Origin: an uncultured Bacteroidia bacterium
GTDB lineage: Bacteria > Bacteroidota > Bacteroidia > NS11-12g > UBA955
Direction: 5' to 3'
NCBI GenBank assembly: GCA_938086785.1
Contig: CALKCM010000010.1
Span: forward strand, 35,741-99,740
Length of the DNA: 64,000 bases
The position numbers and the translations under genes were made by a program. Shown here piece by piece: positions 24,051 through 50,765 of this stretch. The notes below the pieces were generated by a model. That model did no database searches and was not told the DNA's origin. It saw only the letters and a program-made list of their open reading frames with translations. The first letter of the stretch is position 1, and every line of letters starts with the position of its first letter.

Positions 24051-26585
24051 ATGCCACGCATTCTCCTAACGCTAATCTCCATCCTCTACCTGTCCCCTAT
24101 TTTTAGTCAATTTACCGATAGTTTTAGCGATGGTGATTTTAGCGCTAATCCCTCATGGATATCTAATTCTGGAGATTTCATCATAGATGATTCAGAATTA
24201 AGAAGCAATAAAGGAGATGCCAATAGCTTTGGAATAAGCACCCTTTTAGGTTCAAATATTTCCATCTGGAACTTCAGTTTCAAACTGAGTTTCAATCCTT
24301 CTTCAGCCAATTACATGCATGTATTCCTGAGTTCCGATTCATTAGTAGAAAATGCACAAAATGGGTATTATGTAAAAATTGGAAACACAAAAGATGAAAT
24401 CAGCCTGTATAAGTTAACGGATGGAGTATCTATCGAGATAATATCTGGGACGGATGATTTGTTGGACAAGAGCAGCAGTGCCTTTGATGTTTCCGTTCAG
24501 TATAAAAAAGACTCTTGGTACTTATATCAAAAACCAACGGGCACCATTCCGTTTCGCAAAGAAGGCGCCTACTCGGAGACTGCAGTTGACTTATCGACCT
24601 ATTTTGGAGCCTTTATAAAGCAAAGTAAATCGAATGCGGGCAAACATTACCTCGATAATTTTTTTGTTGGTCAACCACCCATTGATAACACATCTCCACA
24701 AATAGTATCCGTAAAGGCTTTGAACAATACAGACATTGAAATTCTTTTAAGTGAACCTATAAAGAGCGTTAATAACCTTCAGCTCACCGTAGATGGAGTA
24801 TTCGCCCAAAGCATTCTAAATTCTTTCCCGAGCAGCAGCCTTCAGGCCCGTTTTGCAAATCCCTTTCCCAAAAATAAATCTATCTCTGTAGCGTTAAAAG
24901 ACATCGAAGATTTAGCAGGGAATCAAACATTACTATCAAGCTATAATTGGGTTAATGTACAATTTGACTCAGCTGTTTACGGAGATATTATTCTTACAGA
25001 AATCATGAGTGTTCCAACTCCTGTTGTCGGCAGTCTACCCAACAATGAATATGTCGAGATATATAATCGAAGTCCAAAATATATAGATCTTTCGCAGTAC
25101 TCTTTTTCAGATGCAACAAATACTGTGGATATGCCCCAGATTAGCCTAAAACCTTATTCATATGTAATTCTCTCTCATGAGGATTATGATATGAGCAGTT
25201 ATGGCCAATGGGTTCCACTATCTATTTTCCCCAGTCTAAATAATGATGGAGACCAAGTATCAATAAAAAGTGCATCGGGAACTATCATACACCAAGTAAA
25301 TTATAAATCTGATTGGCATGAGAATGCACTAAAAAAGCAAGGAGGGTGGAGCTTAGAAATGATTGATACTCAGAAGTTTTGTTTGGGTGCAAACAACTGG
25401 ACCTCGAACCAAAGTTATGGTGGAAGTCCCGGGATTTTAAATGCTGCAAATGCATCCATCGTCATTGAAGCAGATTTTGCCATTGAAAGTGCGTTTGTGC
25501 AAAATGGAAATATTCATGTACTCTTCAACGAGAATAGTTCAGATTGCTCCAATTGTGTAGCGGAAATTTCCGATATAGGAGTGACATTAGACATCGTAAG
25601 TATAAATGGATCAGAGTTAATCCTCAGCTCCACTCTCCCCTTAATTCCTGATATTATTCATGATTTAGAACTCAGTGGTTTTAAAAGTTGTGATGGAAGA
25701 AACTTATCTAAAACTAGCATCAAATTTGGACGAAAAACAGAACGAGAAATCAATCCTTGGGATTTAATTGTCAATGAAATATTATTTAATCCCAAAAACA
25801 ATGATGATGATTACGTTGAAATCTACAACCGCAGCAACAAAATTATTGACTTGCAAGAAGTTTTTATTGCTAATGCCAACGATGATGGAAGTATCAAGGA
25901 TGCATTTCAGATTTACACGAGCCCACTCACCATTTTACCGCAGTCATACACAGCTATAACAACTAGTAAATTAAATACATTAAGCCAGTACTCTCCTCCC
26001 TCATCTGCATCAGTTACTGAAATAGATAAAATGCCTACCTATTCAAATGATAAAGGCACCGTAATACTTATATCTAAAACCAACATTATTCTGCACTCAT
26101 TTTTTTACGAAGACGACCTTCATTTTGAGCTTTTACTCAATAAAGATGGGGTCAGCCTAGAGCGAAGTCACCTAGACACAACCAATGAACATTGGAGCAG
26201 CGCCTCTTATAAAGTCAATTATGGTACTCCAGGGTATAAAAATTCCCAGTTCAGAAATATACCTAACTCCACTTCATTTGCCACCTTACTGTCCAAAACA
26301 GTGAGTCCTGACGGAGATGGATGGGAAGACAAGTTATTGATAAGAATTAATAGCCAACAATTGCCATCAGCCATTAACCTTACCATTTACAACGAATATG
26401 GTCAGCTCATGAGAAAAGTAAAATCTCAACAAGTGCTGGGGCAAGGTGACATCATAGAATGGGATGGCATTTTTAATAATGGCACTGCACCCATGGGTAA
26501 TTACATTGCTCTTGTTGAAGCTATTGGGAATAACGGATCTATTGAAAAGGCAAGACTGATTTTTACAATTTTAAAAAGGCAATAA
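24051..26585 (+). CDS. Large secreted multidomain protein: N-terminal beta-sandwich, Ig-like modules, two lamin-tail domains (LTD), T9SS type-B C-terminal sorting domain
   Basis: Signal peptide MPRILLTLISILYLSPIFSQ. LTD signatures occur twice: ILTEIMSVP...NEYVEIYNRSPKYIDLSQYSF (about nt 24972-25436) and IVNEILFNPKNNDDDYVEIYNRSNKIIDLQEVF (about nt 25752-26249). The C-terminus VSPDGDGWEDKLLI...LTIYNEYGQLM...WDGIFNNGTAPMGNYIALV resembles the gliding-motility/CHU_C type-B CTD. Confidence 0.7.
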   Translation: MPRILLTLISILYLSPIFSQFTDSFSDGDFSANPSWISNSGDFIIDDSELRSNKGDANSFGISTLLGSNISIWNFSFKLSFNPSSANYMHVFLSSDSLVENAQNGYYVKIGNTKDEISLYKLTDGVSIEIISGTDDLLDKSSSAFDVSVQYKKDSWYLYQKPTGTIPFRKEGAYSETAVDLSTYFGAFIKQSKSNAGKHYLDNFFVGQPPIDNTSPQIVSVKALNNTDIEILLSEPIKSVNNLQLTVDGVFAQSILNSFPSSSLQARFANPFPKNKSISVALKDIEDLAGNQTLLSSYNWVNVQFDSAVYGDIILTEIMSVPTPVVGSLPNNEYVEIYNRSPKYIDLSQYSFSDATNTVDMPQISLKPYSYVILSHEDYDMSSYGQWVPLSIFPSLNNDGDQVSIKSASGTIIHQVNYKSDWHENALKKQGGWSLEMIDTQKFCLGANNWTSNQSYGGSPGILNAANASIVIEADFAIESAFVQNGNIHVLFNENSSDCSNCVAEISDIGVTLDIVSINGSELILSSTLPLIPDIIHDLELSGFKSCDGRNLSKTSIKFGRKTEREINPWDLIVNEILFNPKNNDDDYVEIYNRSNKIIDLQEVFIANANDDGSIKDAFQIYTSPLTILPQSYTAITTSKLNTLSQYSPPSSASVTEIDKMPTYSNDKGTVILISKTNIILHSFFYEDDLHFELLLNKDGVSLERSHLDTTNEHWSSASYKVNYGTPGYKNSQFRNIPNSTSFATLLSKTVSPDGDGWEDKLLIRINSQQLPSAINLTIYNEYGQLMRKVKSQQVLGQGDIIEWDGIFNNGTAPMGNYIALVEAIGNNGSIEKARLIFTILKRQ

Positions 26586-27406
26586 TGCTAGCATCCGATT
26601 ACTTTATTCAGTTTAGTCAGCGTTTAAGCGGACACCCTAAAGAAGAACACCAAGCTATTTTTAAAGAACTACTCCATTACCATAAAATTCACTCTAATGG
26701 AAATTGGCATGAATTAACCATTGAGGATAATTTAATAGCCAAAATAGAGGAGCAACTGATCGCATTGAACACACACAAACCTCTACAGTATGTTTTGGGC
26801 ATAGCCCCCTTCTACAATATAGATATAAAGGTAAGTGAGCATACGCTCATCCCAAGACCAGAAACAGAAGAGTTGGTTCATTTTATTTTAGAAGAAAATA
26901 AGGGCAATACTTTGCATGTACTTGATATTGGTACAGGTTCAGGATGCATTCCAGTAACTCTCCTAAAAAATAGACAGCAATGGACTGCGCTCGGCGTAGA
27001 TATTGATGAAAAAGCCCTAAAAATTGCGTTACTAAATGCAAAAGAACACAAAATAAGTCCTAGAGTAGCCTTTGAAAAAATGGACGTTTTGAGGGAAAAC
27101 TTCAACCTAAAGGATGTGAGTATCCTTGTTTCTAACCCTCCCTATATTAGTGAATCTGAAAAAGCGATGATGACTAAAACGGTATTAGATTTTGAGCCAG
27201 AAAAAGCCCTCTTTGCAGACACAGGAGACCCCCTAATCTTTTACAGGAGAATAGCCAAGGAAATGACAACTCAGAAGTATGGAGGAAAAGCTTATTTTGA
27301 AATAAATCCTATTTATGCTGAAGAAATAATTACTATTTTCCAGTCGTTTAACCCAACTCTTTTGAGAGATATGCAACAAAAGAATAGATTCTTATGTATT
27401 TCTTAA
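26585..27406 (+). CDS. prmC: Peptide chain release factor N5-glutamine methyltransferase
   Basis: PLQYVLG, LIPRPETE, VLDIGTGSGCI and VSNPPYI motifs. TAATG overlap with the LTD gene stop. Confidence 0.9.
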   Translation: MLASDYFIQFSQRLSGHPKEEHQAIFKELLHYHKIHSNGNWHELTIEDNLIAKIEEQLIALNTHKPLQYVLGIAPFYNIDIKVSEHTLIPRPETEELVHFILEENKGNTLHVLDIGTGSGCIPVTLLKNRQQWTALGVDIDEKALKIALLNAKEHKISPRVAFEKMDVLRENFNLKDVSILVSNPPYISESEKAMMTKTVLDFEPEKALFADTGDPLIFYRRIAKEMTTQKYGGKAYFEINPIYAEEIITIFQSFNPTLLRDMQQKNRFLCIS

Positions 27407-27429: not shown

Positions 27430-27849
27430 TTAATTATCCGATTTTTTTGGTCTACCTACAGGTCTTTTAACCTTAGGTTCATCTGATATTATATTTTTTC
27501 TGGGACGACCCACAGGACGTTTAGGTCCCGTTTTAACAGGATGAATTCGAGGACGACCTACCGGACGAGTAGGACCTGTTTTCACAGGATGTATTCTTGG
27601 CCTTCCTACCGGGCGCTTAGGACCTGTATCAATAGGGTGAATTCTTGGCCTACCCACCGGGCGCTTAGGGCCCGTTTTAATTGGATGAATGCGAGGGCGA
27701 CCAGGACCTCTTTTAGTTGCAGCCGATTTTATCGCAAGTTGCAAAAGCTCTTTGAGTTCCTTTACCTCATCTTTTATTAATTTAAGATCTGCTTTTATTG
27801 CTTTAAGCTTTAAAGTCTGTTTCTTAACTTTGCTTTCGAAGTTTAACAT
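27430..27849 (-). CDS. Small basic protein: N-terminal coiled coil plus six tandem AT-hook-like GRP modules (putative DNA minor-groove binder)
   Basis: 139 aa. Residues 1-45 are heptad-like and K/L/E-rich. Residues 46-139 read KRGPGRPRIHPIKT, then three 16-aa units (GPKRPVGRPRIHPIDT, GPKRPVGRPRIHPVKT, GPTRPVGRPRIHPVKT), then GPKRPVGRPRKN...KRPVGRPKKSDN. Confidence 0.7.
   Translation of the reverse strand: MLNFESKVKKQTLKLKAIKADLKLIKDEVKELKELLQLAIKSAATKRGPGRPRIHPIKTGPKRPVGRPRIHPIDTGPKRPVGRPRIHPVKTGPTRPVGRPRIHPVKTGPKRPVGRPRKNIISDEPKVKRPVGRPKKSDN
27445..27714 (-). repeat. In-frame 48-nt tandem coding repeats (16-aa AT-hook-like units)
   Basis: Three full units plus degenerate flanking units. 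The units differ at many synonymous positions while the peptide is nearly invariant. Confidence 0.85.
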
Positions 27850-27968
27850 TGATAATTACCTTTCGTGATTTTCGTTTAAAATATGTTGAGTATTAATTGA
27901 GTGTATACAAATATAAAAATAACAATCTATTTAAAAAAATATCTACTAATAAATTAAAAATTAATTGA

Positions 27969-29666
27969 GTGATAGAGCATAATAATAAACATCATATTAA
28001 TCATCTAACCAATGAAGAAATCATAGAATTATGCATCTCTTTAAGAGAAGAGTTCATTCAAACAATTCTTGAGTCAGGTGGCCATTTTGCGGGCAATTTA
28101 GGAGTTGTAGAGCTCACAACAGCTCTGCTGGCAAGTTTCAACCCTCCAAAAGATTCCATAATTTGGGATGTAGGGCATCAATCTTACATTTATAAGATGC
28201 TCACAGGAAGAAGAGACTCTCTGCATACAATTAGGCAAAAAGGTGGCCTTAGTGGCTTCCCAAAAATGGATGAGTCAGAATATGATTCCTTTGGCACTGG
28301 GCATAGTAGCACCGCGTTAAGCGCCAGCTTGGGCATAGCAACAGCAAAGTTTTTGAGACAGGACAATAGTAAAACAATTGCTATTATTGGTGATGGTGCA
28401 TTAACCGGAGGAATGGTTTGGGAGGCCTTAAATAATATTCCAGAAAAACCCCTAAATTTGATAATTATCATTAATGATAATCATATTGGAATAGATCCTA
28501 ATACTGGGAATATTGATGCGCATTTACAAAATATTAAAAATTGTGCAGTAAATATTTTTGACAATTTTGGCATTCAATATTCGGGCCCAATTGATGGACA
28601 TAATATTCCAGATTTAATGAATGTATTAAGCGAGGCAAAGCAGCAGAGTAAGCCTCAGATTATTCATATTAAGACTGTTAAAGGCAAGGGATATGAGCCC
28701 GCAGAAAAAAAACAAACGCAATTTCATGCGCGATCTAAATATGTAAAAATAAATAAACATCAGCCGGCGCAAAAAAAATGGCAAGATGTATTTGGGGAAT
28801 GTCTTGTTGAACTGGCAAAGACCAATAAAAAAATTGCGGCTATTACTCCAGCAATGCCTAGTGGAAGTGGATTAAATACGTTTATGAAGATGTATCCAGA
28901 AAGAAGCTTTGATGTGGGTATAGCTGAGCAGCATGCCTTAACTTTTGCAGCAGGAATGTCCACCCAAGGATATATCCCTTTTGTTAATATCTACAGCACA
29001 TTTTTACAACGTGCGTATGATCAACTAATTCATGATATCGCATTGCAAAATCTGCCTGTTGTGATTGCTGTTGACCGGGCTGGATTAGTGGGAGAAGACG
29101 GGCCGACACATCATGGTGCCTTTGACTTATCTTACCTGCTACCCATTCCTAATTTAATCATCACAGCTCCTGCAAACGAAGGGCAGTTTAGGTTTCTTTT
29201 AGAACAAGCAAGCACCACTCAATCGCCATTTATTATCAGGTATCCAAGGGGGAACATTCTCCGTGAGAGTTCTTTATCAACAGCGAAGAAAACTCTAATT
29301 GAACATAAGAAGGGTAGCGTTAATTTAGTAATAAGTGTAGGAAATAGCTCTTCTATTGTTTCAAAAATTAAAGATTACGGTTTCACCTGGATTCAACCGC
29401 TTTACCTCAAACCTCTTCCACTAGAGGAAATAATCTCTTATATCTCTAACCACTCAAACGTAGTTATTATAGAAGATGGAAGCCTAAAAGGTGGTATTGG
29501 TGAATTCATAAAATCTAAAATACAAGAAACTGATATAAAATCAACGATCCATTCCTTAGGAATAAAAGATCAGTTTGTTTCCCATGGATCTATTTCAGAA
29601 TTACAGGAAGAATGTGGTTTTTCTGAGAATGATATTATCCAATGCTTACAACCTATGACTAATTAA
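27969..29666 (+). CDS. dxs: 1-deoxy-D-xylulose-5-phosphate synthase (short form)
   Basis: GGHFAGNLGVVELTTAL, WDVGHQSY, IGDGALTGGMVWEALNN, GPIDGH, FDVGIAEQHA and DRAGLVGEDGPTHHG. There is no in-frame ATG in the first ~75 codons, so it apparently starts at the GTG at 27969. Confidence 0.9.
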   Translation: MIEHNNKHHINHLTNEEIIELCISLREEFIQTILESGGHFAGNLGVVELTTALLASFNPPKDSIIWDVGHQSYIYKMLTGRRDSLHTIRQKGGLSGFPKMDESEYDSFGTGHSSTALSASLGIATAKFLRQDNSKTIAIIGDGALTGGMVWEALNNIPEKPLNLIIIINDNHIGIDPNTGNIDAHLQNIKNCAVNIFDNFGIQYSGPIDGHNIPDLMNVLSEAKQQSKPQIIHIKTVKGKGYEPAEKKQTQFHARSKYVKINKHQPAQKKWQDVFGECLVELAKTNKKIAAITPAMPSGSGLNTFMKMYPERSFDVGIAEQHALTFAAGMSTQGYIPFVNIYSTFLQRAYDQLIHDIALQNLPVVIAVDRAGLVGEDGPTHHGAFDLSYLLPIPNLIITAPANEGQFRFLLEQASTTQSPFIIRYPRGNILRESSLSTAKKTLIEHKKGSVNLVISVGNSSSIVSKIKDYGFTWIQPLYLKPLPLEEIISYISNHSNVVIIEDGSLKGGIGEFIKSKIQETDIKSTIHSLGIKDQFVSHGSISELQEECGFSENDIIQCLQPMTN

Positions 29667-30579
29667 AGCTATCCTCGTTATGGAACATACTCAAATAGGA
29701 GTAGTATCTCTCGGGATTAATAATTTGCTGTTCTACCGCACTTTTAACCGCACACTCGGGCTCATTTATATGCAGGCAATCATTAAATTTACAATCACTC
29801 ATATGGTATCTAAATTCTGGAAAAGTGTGAGCTAATTCCTGCTTAACTATATCTACCAGGCCAAAATCTCTAATTCCAGGAGTATCTATTATTCTAGTTT
29901 TATTGGTCACATACATCTGAGCAAATGTTGTGGTATGCTTCCCCTTTAAATGTGTTTTACTAATGGCTCCAACTTTAGCTAAAGATTCGGGATATAGCTT
30001 ATTTAACAAGGTAGACTTACCTACTCCACTATGCCCAGCCAGTAAGGATGTTTTATTAAACAAAAAAGCTTTTAACTCTTCTGTTCCATGACCTGTAGTC
30101 GCGCTTCCTACAAAGGTTTCATAGCCCAAATCTGAATATTCTTTGGCCATGTCTACGCTTAGCTCAATGCCGTCATCTTCGAGTAAATCAGTCTTATTAA
30201 AGAATATAGCCGCTGGGATGTGATAGGCTTCGCAGCAAGCCAAAAAACGATCTATAAACCCTCTAGATGTGCTGGGTGCAACCAACGAGGCTACCATCAA
30301 ACCCAAATCTAAATTGGATGCCAATATTTGCCTTTTACTGCTAAGTTTATTGGATTTTCGAATAATATAGTTTTTCCGATTATATATCTCAACAATCTGA
30401 GCGGTATCCTCAAAATTAGGATCTTCTTCAATGCGGACAAGGTCTCCCACCGCAATGGGGTTTGAAATATCTTTCTCTACCAGACGGAATTTACCTCTGA
30501 TCCGGGCTTCAAGAATAATACCATCTAAGGTCTCTACCTGATACCAACTTCCGGTGCTTTTAAGTACAAGAGCGTCCAC
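29659..30579 (-). CDS. rsgA: Ribosome small-subunit-dependent GTPase A
   Basis: OB-fold N-terminus, circularly permuted GTPase (FNKTDL ... GHSGVGKSTLLN ... DTPG), and a C-terminal Zn cluster (CKFNDCLHINEPEC). GTG start. Confidence 0.9.
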   Translation of the reverse strand: MDALVLKSTGSWYQVETLDGIILEARIRGKFRLVEKDISNPIAVGDLVRIEEDPNFEDTAQIVEIYNRKNYIIRKSNKLSSKRQILASNLDLGLMVASLVAPSTSRGFIDRFLACCEAYHIPAAIFFNKTDLLEDDGIELSVDMAKEYSDLGYETFVGSATTGHGTEELKAFLFNKTSLLAGHSGVGKSTLLNKLYPESLAKVGAISKTHLKGKHTTTFAQMYVTNKTRIIDTPGIRDFGLVDIVKQELAHTFPEFRYHMSDCKFNDCLHINEPECAVKSAVEQQIINPERYYSYLSMFHNEDSFN

Positions 30580-50482: not shown

Positions 50483-50556
50483 GGACCTGTAGCTCAACTG
50501 GATAGAGTACTTGACTACGGATTAAGAGGTTTGGGGTTCGAATCCCTACAGGTTCA
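50483..50556 (+). tRNA. tRNA-Arg (anticodon ACG)
   Basis: Hand-folded cloverleaf. Acceptor GGACCTG/CAGGTTC with G2:U71. D arm GCTC-AACTGGATA-GAGT. Anticodon arm CTTGA-CTACGGA-TTAAG. Variable loop AGGTT. T arm TGGGG-TTCGAAT-CCCTA. Discriminator A, with no encoded CCA. Confidence 0.9.
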
Positions 50557-50691: not shown

Positions 50692-50765
50692 GGCTCCGTA
50701 GTTCAACTGAATAGAATTCTGGATTTCGGCTCCAGCGGTTACAGGTTTGAATCCTGTCGGAGTCA
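50692..50765 (+). tRNA. tRNA-Arg (anticodon UCG) with atypical D-loop/T-loop (A19, U56)
   Basis: Hand-folded cloverleaf. Acceptor GGCTCCG/CGGAGTC with G2:U71. D arm GTTC-AACTGAATA-GAAT. Anticodon arm CTGGA-TTTCGGC-TCCAG. Variable loop CGGTT. T arm ACAGG-TTTGAAT-CCTGT. Discriminator A. Confidence 0.8.

What the first reader, a model, noticed from the sequence alone, without database searches (positions are those of the whole stretch)
27430..27849. Coiled-coil protein built from six tandem AT-hook-like GRP modules: candidate bacterial minor-groove or nucleoid protein
The sequence shows a 139-aa monocistronic ORF.
- Residues 1-45 are a heptad-like K/L/E-rich helix (KVKKQTLKLKAIKADLKLIKDEVKELKELLQLAIK).
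- The remaining residues are almost entirely six G-R-P cores in basic/proline context. Three are perfect-length 16-aa units, GPKRPVGRPRIHP(I/V)(D/K)T. Degenerate units flank them, ending in KRPVGRPRKN and KRPVGRPKKSDN.

By established knowledge, an invariant GRP tripeptide flanked by Arg/Lys/Pro defines the HMGA AT-hook, which binds the minor groove of AT-rich DNA. Multi-AT-hook proteins are rare in bacteria; the Myxococcus CarD C-terminal domain is the textbook case.

At the DNA level the 48-nt units differ at many synonymous sites (for example aggacgacctaccggacg, tggccttcctaccgggcg, tggcctacccaccgggcg). My by-eye count is roughly a quarter of positions between units, while the peptide is nearly invariant. 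That points to selection on the peptide rather than recent slippage.

The gene's own upstream region (27850-27968, shared divergently with dxs) is almost pure A/T. It carries a 12-nt direct repeat, ATTAATTGAGTG, at 27892-27903 and 27960-27971. My inference is an oligomerising (coiled-coil) multivalent AT-tract binder, that is, a nucleoid-associated or silencing-type protein, possibly autoregulated.
Basis: partly seen in the sequence, partly recalled or inferred. Interest (0 to 1): 0.7.

Follow-up and report, generated by a model that had tools for sequence, protein, structure and literature searches.

The report
Coiled-coil protein with six AT-hooks
A small, strongly conserved gene in an uncultured Bacteroidota lineage encodes a self-associating helix followed by six AT-hook-type DNA-binding repeats, so it is most likely a new bacterial chromosome-architecture protein, though no DNA binding has been tested.

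Summary
Window 27430-27849 (-) is a 139-aa ORF. Residues 2-45 form a six-heptad amphipathic helix. The rest is a basic, proline-rich tail with six G-R-P cores, mostly 16 residues apart.

It is a real gene. Two orthologues from other metagenomes (92% and 88% identical) sit in the same prmC | gene | dxs position. dN/dS is 0.07-0.11, at or below the values for the neighbouring housekeeping genes. All six GRP cores and every heptad core position are unchanged in both.

No full-length homologue exists beyond this narrow clade. The helix has no detectable relatives.

The hooks match the literature definition of an AT-hook: a GRP core flanked by K/R and P. They carry Val or Pro where the canonical R-G-R has its first Arg. 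The window protein scores 15.1 bits against Pfam AT_hook, just under the 17.4-bit cutoff.

[quoted passage not shown] It uses the design logic of H-NS/Lsr2 with HMGA/CarD-type hooks. DNA binding, oligomeric state, silencing and autoregulation are all inferred. I rate it a new variant of a known kind, of moderate interest.

The parts
27430..27849 (-). Gene for the 139-aa protein, stop codon included (15.6 kDa, pI about 11.8, net charge +30)
   Evidence: ORF list. Identical protein called on 5 independent metagenome contigs in the same synteny. Orthologues L057:2478-2897 and L058:4001-4414. dN/dS 0.07-0.11. Charge and pI.
27715..27849 (-). Residues 1-45: single amphipathic helix with six uninterrupted heptads; inferred coiled-coil self-association module
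   Evidence: 12 of 13 a/d positions hydrophobic, matched by 2 of 5000 shuffles. AlphaFold2 helix 2-45, pLDDT 86-96. All a/d residues are identical in both orthologues; the substitutions fall at b, c, e and g positions (alignment, register). No sequence homologue.
27433..27714 (-). Residues 46-139: basic, proline-rich tail without secondary structure, carrying the six AT-hook-type units
   Evidence: No DSSP secondary structure, pLDDT 58-74. 29 K+R, 21 P and 11 G in the 96 residues 44-139. Every significant database match falls in this part only.
27503..27702 (.). 48-nt tandem repeat array (4.2 copies, 76% matches) encoding the 16-aa units
   Evidence: Tandem Repeats Finder; unit-by-unit comparison.
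27694..27702 (-). GRP core 1 (residues 50-52; context KRGPGRPRIHP)
   Evidence: Sequence; invariant in L057 and L058.
27646..27654 (-). GRP core 2 (residues 66-68; KRPVGRPRIHP)
   Evidence: Sequence; invariant in L057 and L058.
27598..27606 (-). GRP core 3 (residues 82-84; KRPVGRPRIHP)
   Evidence: Sequence; invariant in L057 and L058.
27550..27558 (-). GRP core 4 (residues 98-100; TRPVGRPRIHP)
   Evidence: Sequence; invariant in L057 and L058.
27502..27510 (-). GRP core 5 (residues 114-116; KRPVGRPRKN). This is the stretch that scores best against Pfam AT_hook.
   Evidence: In L058 the unit after this core is a regular RIHPVETGP unit instead of RKNIISDEPKV.
27448..27456 (-). GRP core 6 (residues 132-134; KRPVGRPKKSDN, C-terminus)
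   Evidence: L057 has KRSVGRPKKTDS and L058 has KRPVGRPTKTDS.
27850..27968 (.). 119-nt divergent intergenic region shared with dxs; 16.8% G+C; conserved among the three orthologous loci
   Evidence: 78-84% pairwise identity, with long invariant runs such as TTTATTAGTAGATATTTTTTT. Flanking genes have pS 0.44-0.58.
27908..27915 (-). TATATTTG, a match to the Bacteroidota -7 promoter consensus TAnnTTTG (consensus recalled from the literature), 59 nt upstream of the ATG
   Evidence: The only match on this strand in the intergenic region. Identical in L058; TACTTTCG in L057. The background rate is about 1.6 per kb on both strands, so this is only a consistent placement, not proof.
27892..27903 (+). 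12-nt direct repeat copy 2 (ATTAATTGAGTG). On the - strand it lies just downstream of the -7 box.
   Evidence: The core ACTCAATTA is kept in L057 and L058.
27960..27971 (+). 12-nt direct repeat copy 1; its last three bases are the GTG start codon of dxs
   Evidence: Partly conserved: - strand CACTCAATTGTT in L057 and CACTCAGTTATT in L058.

Best explanation
The gene encodes a small, very basic DNA-architectural protein restricted to a narrow clade of uncultured Bacteroidota.

Shown:
- It is a real, strongly constrained protein-coding gene at a fixed housekeeping locus.
- Residues 2-45 are predicted to form one long amphipathic helix with a clean heptad pattern.
- The remaining 94 residues have no predicted secondary structure. 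They carry six G-R-P cores embedded in (K/T)RP(V/P)GRPR(I/K), most of them exactly 16 residues apart.

Inferred:
- The helices pair into a parallel coiled coil. It is a dimer at least; the L-at-a / I-d core of the two central heptads is of the type that favours tetramers in model peptides.
- Each particle would then present 12 or more hooks on flexible, proline-stiffened arms.
- Each hook lies in the narrow minor groove of an A/T tract, as HMGA, CarD and WhiB7 hooks do.
- A single hook is probably weak here, because Val or Pro replaces the first Arg of the canonical R-G-R. Affinity and selectivity would come from avidity over several A/T tracts spaced roughly one to one and a half helical turns apart.
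- Because the arms of one oligomer can engage two duplexes or distant segments, the protein would bridge, bend or condense DNA.
- In a genome of about 36% G+C, whose intergenic DNA can reach 83% A+T, binding would concentrate on promoter and intergenic regions. The protein would therefore act as a general nucleoid-associated or promoter-architecture factor rather than a specific silencer of foreign DNA.
- Binding to its own AT-rich, conserved promoter region is possible but untested.
For: Real gene.
- Orthologues at 92% and 88% identity sit in the same prmC | gene | dxs synteny.
- dN/dS is 0.07-0.11 with dS 0.66-1.1. The neighbours give 0.10 (dxs, window vs L058) and 0.13-0.15 (prmC).
- The identical protein is called on 5 independent metagenome contigs.
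- Antisense ORFs over the array are not conserved.

Hooks.
- There are six GRP cores flanked by K/R and P. This matches the literature definition and resembles the Reeves consensus TPKRPRGRPKK (unit GPKRPVGRPRI) (PMC11354804).
- All 18 cores in the three proteins are intact.
- The count stays at six in L058 even though one unit was replaced.
- Substitutions fall in linker positions.
- Pfam AT_hook is the top family: 15.1 bits for the window protein and 20.4 bits, above cutoff, for the L057 orthologue.
- Database matches are arrays of KRP(R/V)GRPRK hooks in other proteins. V is nearly as common as R before GRP (117 vs 132).

Helix.
- Heptad statistics, AlphaFold2 helix 2-45 at pLDDT 86-96, and invariant a/d residues.
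- The only resemblances in the PDB are to designed coiled coils and helical bundles, and these are non-significant.

Context.
- The locus is housekeeping. No viral relatives were found. No significant anti-phage defence family match beyond two weak low-complexity hits.

Precedent for the design.
- H-NS, Lsr2, MvaT and Rok combine an N-terminal oligomerisation module with a minor-groove reader of AT-rich DNA (PMC6936261).
- CarD's disordered RGRP domain binds AT-rich minor groove and localises to the nucleoid (PMC4374960).
Against: - No experiment or expression data of any kind is available.
- The first Arg of the R-G-R core, described as central in HMGA-DNA structures (PMC11354804), is Val in five units and Pro in one.
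- The window protein is below the Pfam gathering score, and the L058 orthologue gets no AT_hook match at E <= 0.1.
- AT-hooks can also bind RNA (PMC4615771).
- A single helix offers one association interface, not the two dimerisation sites that let H-NS-like proteins form filaments.
- The helix could instead bind a partner protein.
- The family was found in only three species-level lineages. No GRP-rich ORF lay within the up to 4 kb of flank fetched around dxs in 51 other genomes (mostly Bacteroidota; one contig ends at the dxs start). It is therefore not a general Bacteroidota nucleoid protein.
Confidence: 0.5

Rival explanations
1. Adaptor or specific transcription co-factor. The helix does not self-associate. 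It docks onto a partner such as RNA polymerase, a sigma factor or a regulator, and the hook array merely tethers that partner to AT-rich promoter DNA. [quoted passage not shown]
For: In CarD the hook domain is inactive on its own and only enhances a protein-protein interaction module (PMC4374960). Other metagenomic proteins fuse similar hook arrays to a sigma-70 factor (P0045) and to DUF5771 (P0019); P0001 and P0056 have N-terminal regions that look by eye like HTH and RHH folds but gave no Pfam match other than AT_hook. The gene shares a conserved divergent promoter region with dxs.
Against: The helix has a regular homotypic heptad core over six heptads, which is typical of self-association. 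No partner gene is linked to it; the gene is monocistronic between convergent and divergent neighbours.
Confidence: 0.17
2. RNA-binding or RNA-chaperone protein. The basic GRP array binds structured RNA (rRNA, tRNA or mRNA) rather than DNA.
For: Canonical and extended AT-hooks can bind RNA, some with about ten-fold higher affinity than DNA (PMC4615771). Because neighbouring hooks supply basic patches 6-20 residues from each GRP core, the internal units formally fit the extended AT-hook pattern (by inspection of the sequence). The nearby genes prmC and rsgA act in translation.
Against: Basic residues also lie directly next to each core, as in canonical DNA-binding hooks. The neighbouring genes are not co-transcribed with this one. 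All characterised bacterial GRP hooks (CarD, WhiB7) bind DNA.
Confidence: 0.12
3. H-NS-like xenogeneic silencer in the strict sense. The protein forms filaments on horizontally acquired AT-rich DNA and represses it.
For: It has the same modular logic as H-NS, Lsr2, MvaT and Rok. No member of those families is described for Bacteroidota in the papers found.
Against: The host genome is itself AT-rich (about 36% G+C in the window), so AT content cannot mark foreign DNA well. There is only one predicted association helix rather than two dimerisation sites. There is no folded DNA-binding domain.
Confidence: 0.1
4. Mobile-element or phage-derived accessory protein, for example an anti-restriction protein, or a spurious or decaying ORF created by a GC-rich repeat.
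For: There is a weak match of the tail to PHROG 6422, 'Lar-like restriction alleviation' (30 bits), and weak PADLOC matches (16-17 bits). The protein is absent from the large protein collection.
Against: Those matches cover only the low-complexity tail. There are no viral relatives. The gene keeps a fixed position between housekeeping genes in three lineages, with dN/dS of 0.07-0.11.
Confidence: 0.03

Closest known systems
HMGA1/HMGA2 (eukaryotic high-mobility-group AT-hook proteins)
   Same: Both are small and intrinsically disordered, with several GRP-centred hooks flanked by K/R and P. The unit GPKRPVGRPRI resembles the consensus TPKRPRGRPKK. An architectural, multivalent minor-groove binding mode is expected for both.
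   Different: HMGA has three hooks with an R-G-R core and an acidic C-terminal tail, and no coiled coil. This protein has six hooks with (V/P)-G-R, no acidic tail, and an N-terminal heptad helix. It is bacterial. The only similarity is in the short motif, so common descent cannot be claimed.
[quoted passage not shown]
   Same: Both are bacterial proteins with a disordered array of GRP hooks (four RGRP in CarD). [quoted passage not shown]
   Different: CarD has a folded N-terminal CarD_CdnL_TRCF domain that binds RNA polymerase and CarG, plus an acidic segment. Neither is present here (Pfam finds nothing). CarD is confined to myxobacteria.
H-NS / Lsr2 / MvaT / Rok (bacterial DNA-bridging xenogeneic silencers)
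   Same: Design logic only: an N-terminal helical oligomerisation module plus a C-terminal reader of the AT-rich minor groove. H-NS and Lsr2 use an AT-hook-like Q/RGR loop.
   Different: Those proteins have two dimerisation sites and a folded DNA-binding domain with a single hook-like loop. This protein has one helix and six linear hooks on a disordered tail. There is no sequence or family match.
WhiB7 (actinobacterial Fe-S regulator with a C-terminal AT-hook)
   Same: It is a bacterial protein whose canonical AT-hook has been shown structurally to bind an AT-rich minor groove next to a promoter (PMC11354804).
   Different: WhiB7 has a single hook attached to a WhiB Fe-S domain that binds sigma A. 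It has no repeat array and no coiled coil.
Unnamed metagenomic small proteins with KRPVGRPRK arrays (for example P0008, P0011, P0053)
   Same: They use the same hook variant (V before GRP) with 15-18-residue spacing. An adjacent helical segment is apparent by eye in their sequences. P0008 also sits in a housekeeping context.
   Different: There is no detectable similarity outside the hooks, the hook numbers differ (3-4), and the organisms differ. They are analogues rather than orthologues, and none is characterised.

Membership tests
AT-hook motif (literature definition; Pfam PF02178) | G-R-P core flanked by basic residues (K/R), often with nearby prolines, in a 10-15-residue peptide | tested here: met
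   Six cores in (K/T)RP(V/P)GRP(R/K)(I/K) context. Definition taken from PMC11354804 and PMC4615771.
AT-hook motif (literature definition; Pfam PF02178) | Score at or above the Pfam gathering threshold (17.4 bits) | tested here: not met
   Window protein: 15.1 bits, E = 0.021. L057 orthologue: 20.4 bits, which passes. L058 orthologue: no AT_hook match at E <= 0.1. The family as a whole is borderline.
AT-hook motif (literature definition; Pfam PF02178) | Central R-G-R tripeptide that lies deep in the minor groove | tested here: not met
   The residue before G is V in five units and P in one. V at this position is common among the related hook arrays retrieved (117 V vs 132 R).
AT-hook motif (literature definition; Pfam PF02178) | [quoted passage not shown] | not testable with these tools
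   Needs EMSA, footprinting or netropsin competition.
HMGA family | Three AT-hooks followed by an acidic C-terminal tail | tested here: not met
   Six hooks. The C-terminus is KKSDN, and the tail (residues 44-139) has only 4 acidic residues in 96.
CarD (CarD_CdnL_TRCF plus HMGA-like domain) | N-terminal CarD_CdnL_TRCF RNA-polymerase-interacting domain and an acidic segment before the hooks | tested here: not met
   Pfam and NCBIfam find no such domain. The N-terminus is a single helix.
H-NS-like DNA bridgers (H-NS, Lsr2, MvaT, Rok) | N-terminal oligomerisation domain with two dimerisation sites | tested here: inconclusive
   One 44-residue heptad helix is predicted. The number of interfaces and the oligomeric state cannot be derived from sequence.
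H-NS-like DNA bridgers (H-NS, Lsr2, MvaT, Rok) | Folded C-terminal DNA-binding domain; sequence membership in one of the four families | tested here: not met
   The tail has no secondary structure. There is no Pfam, NCBIfam or PDB match to any of these families.
Extended AT-hook (eAT-hook, RNA-preferring) | (K/R)>3 - X6-20 - GRP - X6-20 - (K/R)>3, with the basic patches set apart from the core | tested here: inconclusive
   The pattern is formally satisfied for internal units, because the neighbouring hooks supply 4 basic residues on each side at 6-20 residues (sequence). Basic residues also directly flank each core, as in canonical hooks.

The most novel reading that the evidence does not exclude
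This would be a fifth, independently evolved class of bacterial proteins that bridge or condense AT-rich DNA. It would be a functional analogue of H-NS/Lsr2/MvaT/Rok in a Bacteroidota lineage, a phylum for which I found no such protein described. Instead of a folded DNA-binding domain, it would be built from a coiled coil plus a fixed-valency array of six linear, eukaryote-type AT-hooks. Hook number would be held constant by selection even while individual units turn over.
Probability: 0.25. Interest if true: 0.7.

Novelty: new variant of a known kind. Interest (0 to 1): 0.45.

Why it matters
Bacterial chromatin proteins that read AT-rich DNA are known from a few phyla: H-NS and MvaT in Proteobacteria, Lsr2 in Actinobacteria and Rok in Bacilli. 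I found no description of one for Bacteroidota.

This gene shows that the same design can be assembled from canonical HMGA-type hooks on a disordered tail. The design is an oligomerisation helix plus a minor-groove reader.

The tail is also conserved as tightly as an enzyme (dN 0.05-0.07 at dS 0.7-1.1), which is unusual for an intrinsically disordered repeat.

The protein is only 139 aa and can be tested in vitro. It would make a compact model for how hook valency and spacing set DNA affinity, bridging and condensation. It would also help ask whether the widespread, uncharacterised KRPVGRPRK hook variant, which lacks the first Arg of R-G-R, is a true minor-groove binder.

Tried and rejected
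- Word-indexed homology search with the whole protein and exhaustive phmmer against 1.84 billion representatives. All matches lie in the hook array and none covers the helix. The top hits without any GRP (P0023, P0025, P0028, P0029, P0031, P0037) are 16-residue-period repeat proteins, which are periodicity artefacts and not relatives.
- Search with the N-terminal 56 residues alone found no candidate.
- Exact-sequence cluster look-ups of the three proteins, tried twice, found none of them in the collection.
- Synteny scan around dxs retrieved 51 loci, mostly Bacteroidota. The nearest genome (Dxs 87% identical, MAG SFB_South_Co_48) has a contig that ends at the dxs start. All others are 50% identical or less, and none has an ORF with 2 or more GRP in the DNA fetched.
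- Viral contigs and GenBank phages gave nothing.
- PDB sequence search gave only non-significant matches of the helix to designed coiled coils.
- The PHROG 'Lar-like' hit (30 bits) and the PADLOC REase_II and DrmC hits (16-17 bits) cover low-complexity stretches only. I rejected them as family assignments.
- The sigma-70 promoter scan was uninformative: 3 sites against 3.2 expected, and the wrong promoter type for this phylum.
- Antisense ORFs over the array were considered as the real gene. I rejected this because their peptides are not conserved, while the minus-strand frame shows dN/dS of about 0.07.
- Literature searches for VGRPRK, VGRPRI, KRPVGRP or PVGRPR, and for AT-hook nucleoid proteins in Bacteroidota, found nothing.
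Full report

Yes.

It stands alone as a transcription unit:
- Its 3' end faces the 3' end of a HemK/PrmC-like methyltransferase gene (26585-27406 +; MTS domain and an NPPY motif). The gap is 23 nt.
- Its 5' end diverges from dxs (27969-29666 +; DXP_synthase_N at E = 1e-89) across 119 nt.

The protein has six G-R-P tripeptides, starting at residues 50, 66, 82, 98, 114 and 132. Units 2-4 are full 16-residue units: GPKRPVGRPRIHPIDT, GPKRPVGRPRIHPVKT and GPTRPVGRPRIHPVKT. Unit 1 (ATKRGPGRPRIHPIKT) and units 5-6 (…KRPVGRPRKNIISDEPKV, KRPVGRPKKSDN) are degenerate.

Tandem Repeats Finder reports a 48-nt period with 4.2 copies and 76% matches at 27503-27702. Units 2-4 differ from each other at 9, 11 and 14 of 48 nucleotides. 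Their pS is 0.43-0.62 and their pN is 0.07-0.16.

It is not unusual window-wide, but it is unusual locally: 7 of 2000 dinucleotide shuffles of 27850-27980 reach a direct repeat of 12 nt.

**2. Is it a gene?**

The identical protein is called on five independent metagenome contigs with the same neighbours: metF, rsgA and dxs on one side and prmC on the other. Those contigs are 99.6-99.97% identical to the window and show only two silent differences inside the gene.

A metagenome scan recovered two diverged orthologues in the same prmC | gene | dxs arrangement:
- L057:2478-2897, 139 aa, 92% identical.
- L058:4001-4414, 137 aa, 88% identical, on a 198-kb contig.

| Gene | dN/dS | dS | dN |
|---|---|---|---|
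| AT-hook gene | 0.07-0.11 | 0.66-1.10 | 0.047-0.074 |
| dxs (window vs L058) | 0.10 | – | – |
| prmC | 0.13-0.15 | – | – |

These are Nei-Gojobori estimates. A predicted disordered repeat protein is thus conserved at least as tightly as its enzyme neighbours.

All 18 GRP cores across the three proteins are intact. Substitutions fall in linker positions (I/V, D/E/K, K/T). In the helix they fall at heptad positions b, c, e and g, and never at a or d.

The plus-strand ORFs that overlap the array (79 and 59 aa) give unrelated peptides in the orthologues. They are by-products of the codon composition.

**3. Anatomy**

The helix:
- In residues 1-43, 12 of 13 a/d heptad positions are hydrophobic (M1, F4, V8, Q11, L15, I18, L22, I25, V29, L32, L36, A39, A43). 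Elsewhere 8 of 30 are. Two of 5000 shuffles do as well.
- Single-sequence AlphaFold2 gives one helix at residues 2-45 with pLDDT 86-96.

The tail:
- AlphaFold2 gives no secondary structure for the remainder, at pLDDT 58-74.
- The protein is 15.6 kDa, with pI about 11.8 and net charge +30.

No signal peptide or membrane segment is evident in the sequence.

**4. Relatives**

No full-length relative exists outside the three lineages:
- Exhaustive phmmer against 1.84 billion representatives gave 78 hits. All fall within query residues of about 22 onward, and none covers the helix.
- The best-scoring hits without any GRP are other 16-residue-period repeat proteins. These are periodicity artefacts.
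- The genuine matches are arrays of KRP(R/V/P)GRPR(K/I) hooks attached to unrelated modules. P0045 is a sigma-70 factor and P0019 carries DUF5771 (Pfam). Other partners (HTH- and RHH-like N-termini, helical segments) are my reading of the sequences by eye.
- Among these hooks, Val is almost as frequent as Arg before GRP (117 vs 132). The modal core-to-core spacing is 16-18 residues.
- The helix alone finds nothing. The PDB offers only non-significant matches to designed coiled coils.

Distribution:
- The nearest genome in the species-representative collection is a San Francisco Bay Bacteroidota MAG (Dxs 87% identical). Its contig ends at the dxs start.
- All other dxs loci are 50% identical or less. 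None has a GRP-rich ORF in the DNA fetched.
- The neighbouring 844-aa protein has a CHU_C type IX secretion domain, which fits Bacteroidota.
- Viral collections have no relative.

**5. Repeat history**

Terminal units are in register between orthologues: unit 1 differs at 7-9 nt and unit 5 (window vs L057) at 7 nt. Internal units show some shuffling:
- Window unit 4 is closest to L057 unit 3 (5 differences).
- L058 unit 5 is closest to L057 unit 2 (5 differences).

In L058 the degenerate unit-5 spacer (RKNIISDEPKV) is replaced by a regular RIHPVETGP unit, yet the number of cores remains six. With only three sequences, this is weak evidence that valency itself is selected.

**6. The upstream region**

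The 119-nt intergenic region is 78-84% identical pairwise among the three loci and has long invariant runs. In the flanking genes, 44-58% of synonymous sites differ. The region is therefore constrained, as expected for a compact divergent promoter.

One TAnnTTTG match lies 59 nt upstream of the ATG on the correct strand (TATATTTG, 27915-27908). TAnnTTTG is the Bacteroidota -7 consensus as I recall it from the literature. The match is identical in L058 and has one mismatch in L057. At a background of about 1.6 matches per kb this is only suggestive.

The core ACTCAATTA of both repeat copies is largely retained. Copy 1 is partly explained by the dxs start codon and its translation-initiation region. 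Nothing here tests autoregulation.

**7. Mechanism**

The shown and inferred steps are separated in the Best explanation section. In short, a coiled-coil oligomer would present 12 or more weak minor-groove hooks on proline-stiffened arms. That gives avidity-driven binding to clustered A/T tracts and the capacity to bridge or condense DNA.

The inference rests on established AT-hook behaviour in HMGA, CarD and WhiB7 (PMC11354804, PMC4374960). It also rests on the recurrent 'oligomerisation module plus AT-rich minor-groove reader' design of H-NS-like proteins (PMC6936261).

Two points temper it:
- The first Arg of the canonical R-G-R is missing.
- The Pfam score is borderline: 15.1 bits for the window protein and 20.4 for L057, against a cutoff of 17.4, with no AT_hook match at E <= 0.1 for L058.

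Because the genome is itself AT-rich (about 36% G+C), I favour a general architectural or promoter-region role over xenogeneic silencing.

**8. Comparison and novelty**

The protein works like an HMGA/CarD-type hook array joined to an H-NS-type oligomerisation logic. It is not a member of the HMGA, CarD or H-NS/Lsr2/MvaT/Rok families; their defining features were tested and not met (see the membership table).

I found no paper describing a stand-alone coiled-coil/multi-AT-hook protein in bacteria, an AT-hook nucleoid protein in Bacteroidota, or the VGRPR(K/I) hook variant. Absence from the searchable library is not proof of absence.

My rating is a new variant of a known kind, with interest 0.45. 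It is a clean, well-conserved and experimentally tractable candidate. However, the motif is known, the clade is narrow and uncultured, and every functional step is still inferred.

Noticed in passing
L057:704-2359 (-): The dxs orthologue on this contig is only 67% identical to the window Dxs, against 86% for L058. It is 551 aa long, and reading the two translations by eye the divergence is concentrated in the C-terminal third. This suggests a recombinant gene or a chimeric assembly.
   Followed up: partly
window 27541-27780 (+) and 27689-27868 (+): The strand opposite the repeat array stays open for 79 and 59 codons. The corresponding peptides differ in L057 and L058, so these are composition artefacts that a gene caller could mistake for genes.
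   Followed up: yes
window 27557-27588 and 27658-27674 (+): Three terminator-like hairpins followed by T runs lie on the plus strand inside the array (3 found, 0.6 expected). They are antisense to the gene and downstream of prmC. No terminator-like site was reported in prmC's own 23-nt gap. They could stop read-through from prmC, or they could be a by-product of the CCGG-rich codons.
   Followed up: no
window 24051-26585 (+): An 844-aa protein with Lamin Tail Domain repeats and a CHU_C type IX secretion signal. Its stop codon overlaps the start codon of prmC (both at 26585), so the two are probably co-transcribed. This is an odd pairing of a secreted surface protein with a release-factor methyltransferase.
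   Followed up: partly
window 27969-29666 (+) and 29659-30579 (-): dxs starts with a GTG embedded in the 12-nt repeat. At 565 aa it is shorter than the roughly 620 aa I recall as typical for Dxs. Its 3' end overlaps the 3' end of the convergent rsgA gene by 8 nt.
   Followed up: no
window 50483-50556 and 50692-50765 (+): Two tRNA genes are the only Rfam matches in the 64-kb window.
   Followed up: no
L060:4001-4363 (protein P0008): A non-homologous analogue of 120 aa. Its N-terminal region of about 45 residues looks helical (my reading of the sequence) and is followed by four KRPVGRP hooks. It lies between a Mur ligase gene and a ThiF/rhodanese gene on a 334-kb contig of a different bacterium. 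The 'helix plus V-type hooks' design may therefore recur in housekeeping contexts.
   Followed up: partly
protein P0045 (590 aa): A sigma-70 family factor (regions 1.2, 2 and 4) with an N-terminal array of five AT-hooks. This is a direct fusion of AT-tract targeting to a sigma factor.
   Followed up: partly
window 27430-27849 and orthologues: The window protein and both orthologues are absent from the 15-billion-sequence protein collection, and the N-terminal query found no word matches. The exact protein is nevertheless called on five Logan contigs. Small repeat proteins of this kind may be under-represented in protein databases.
   Followed up: partly
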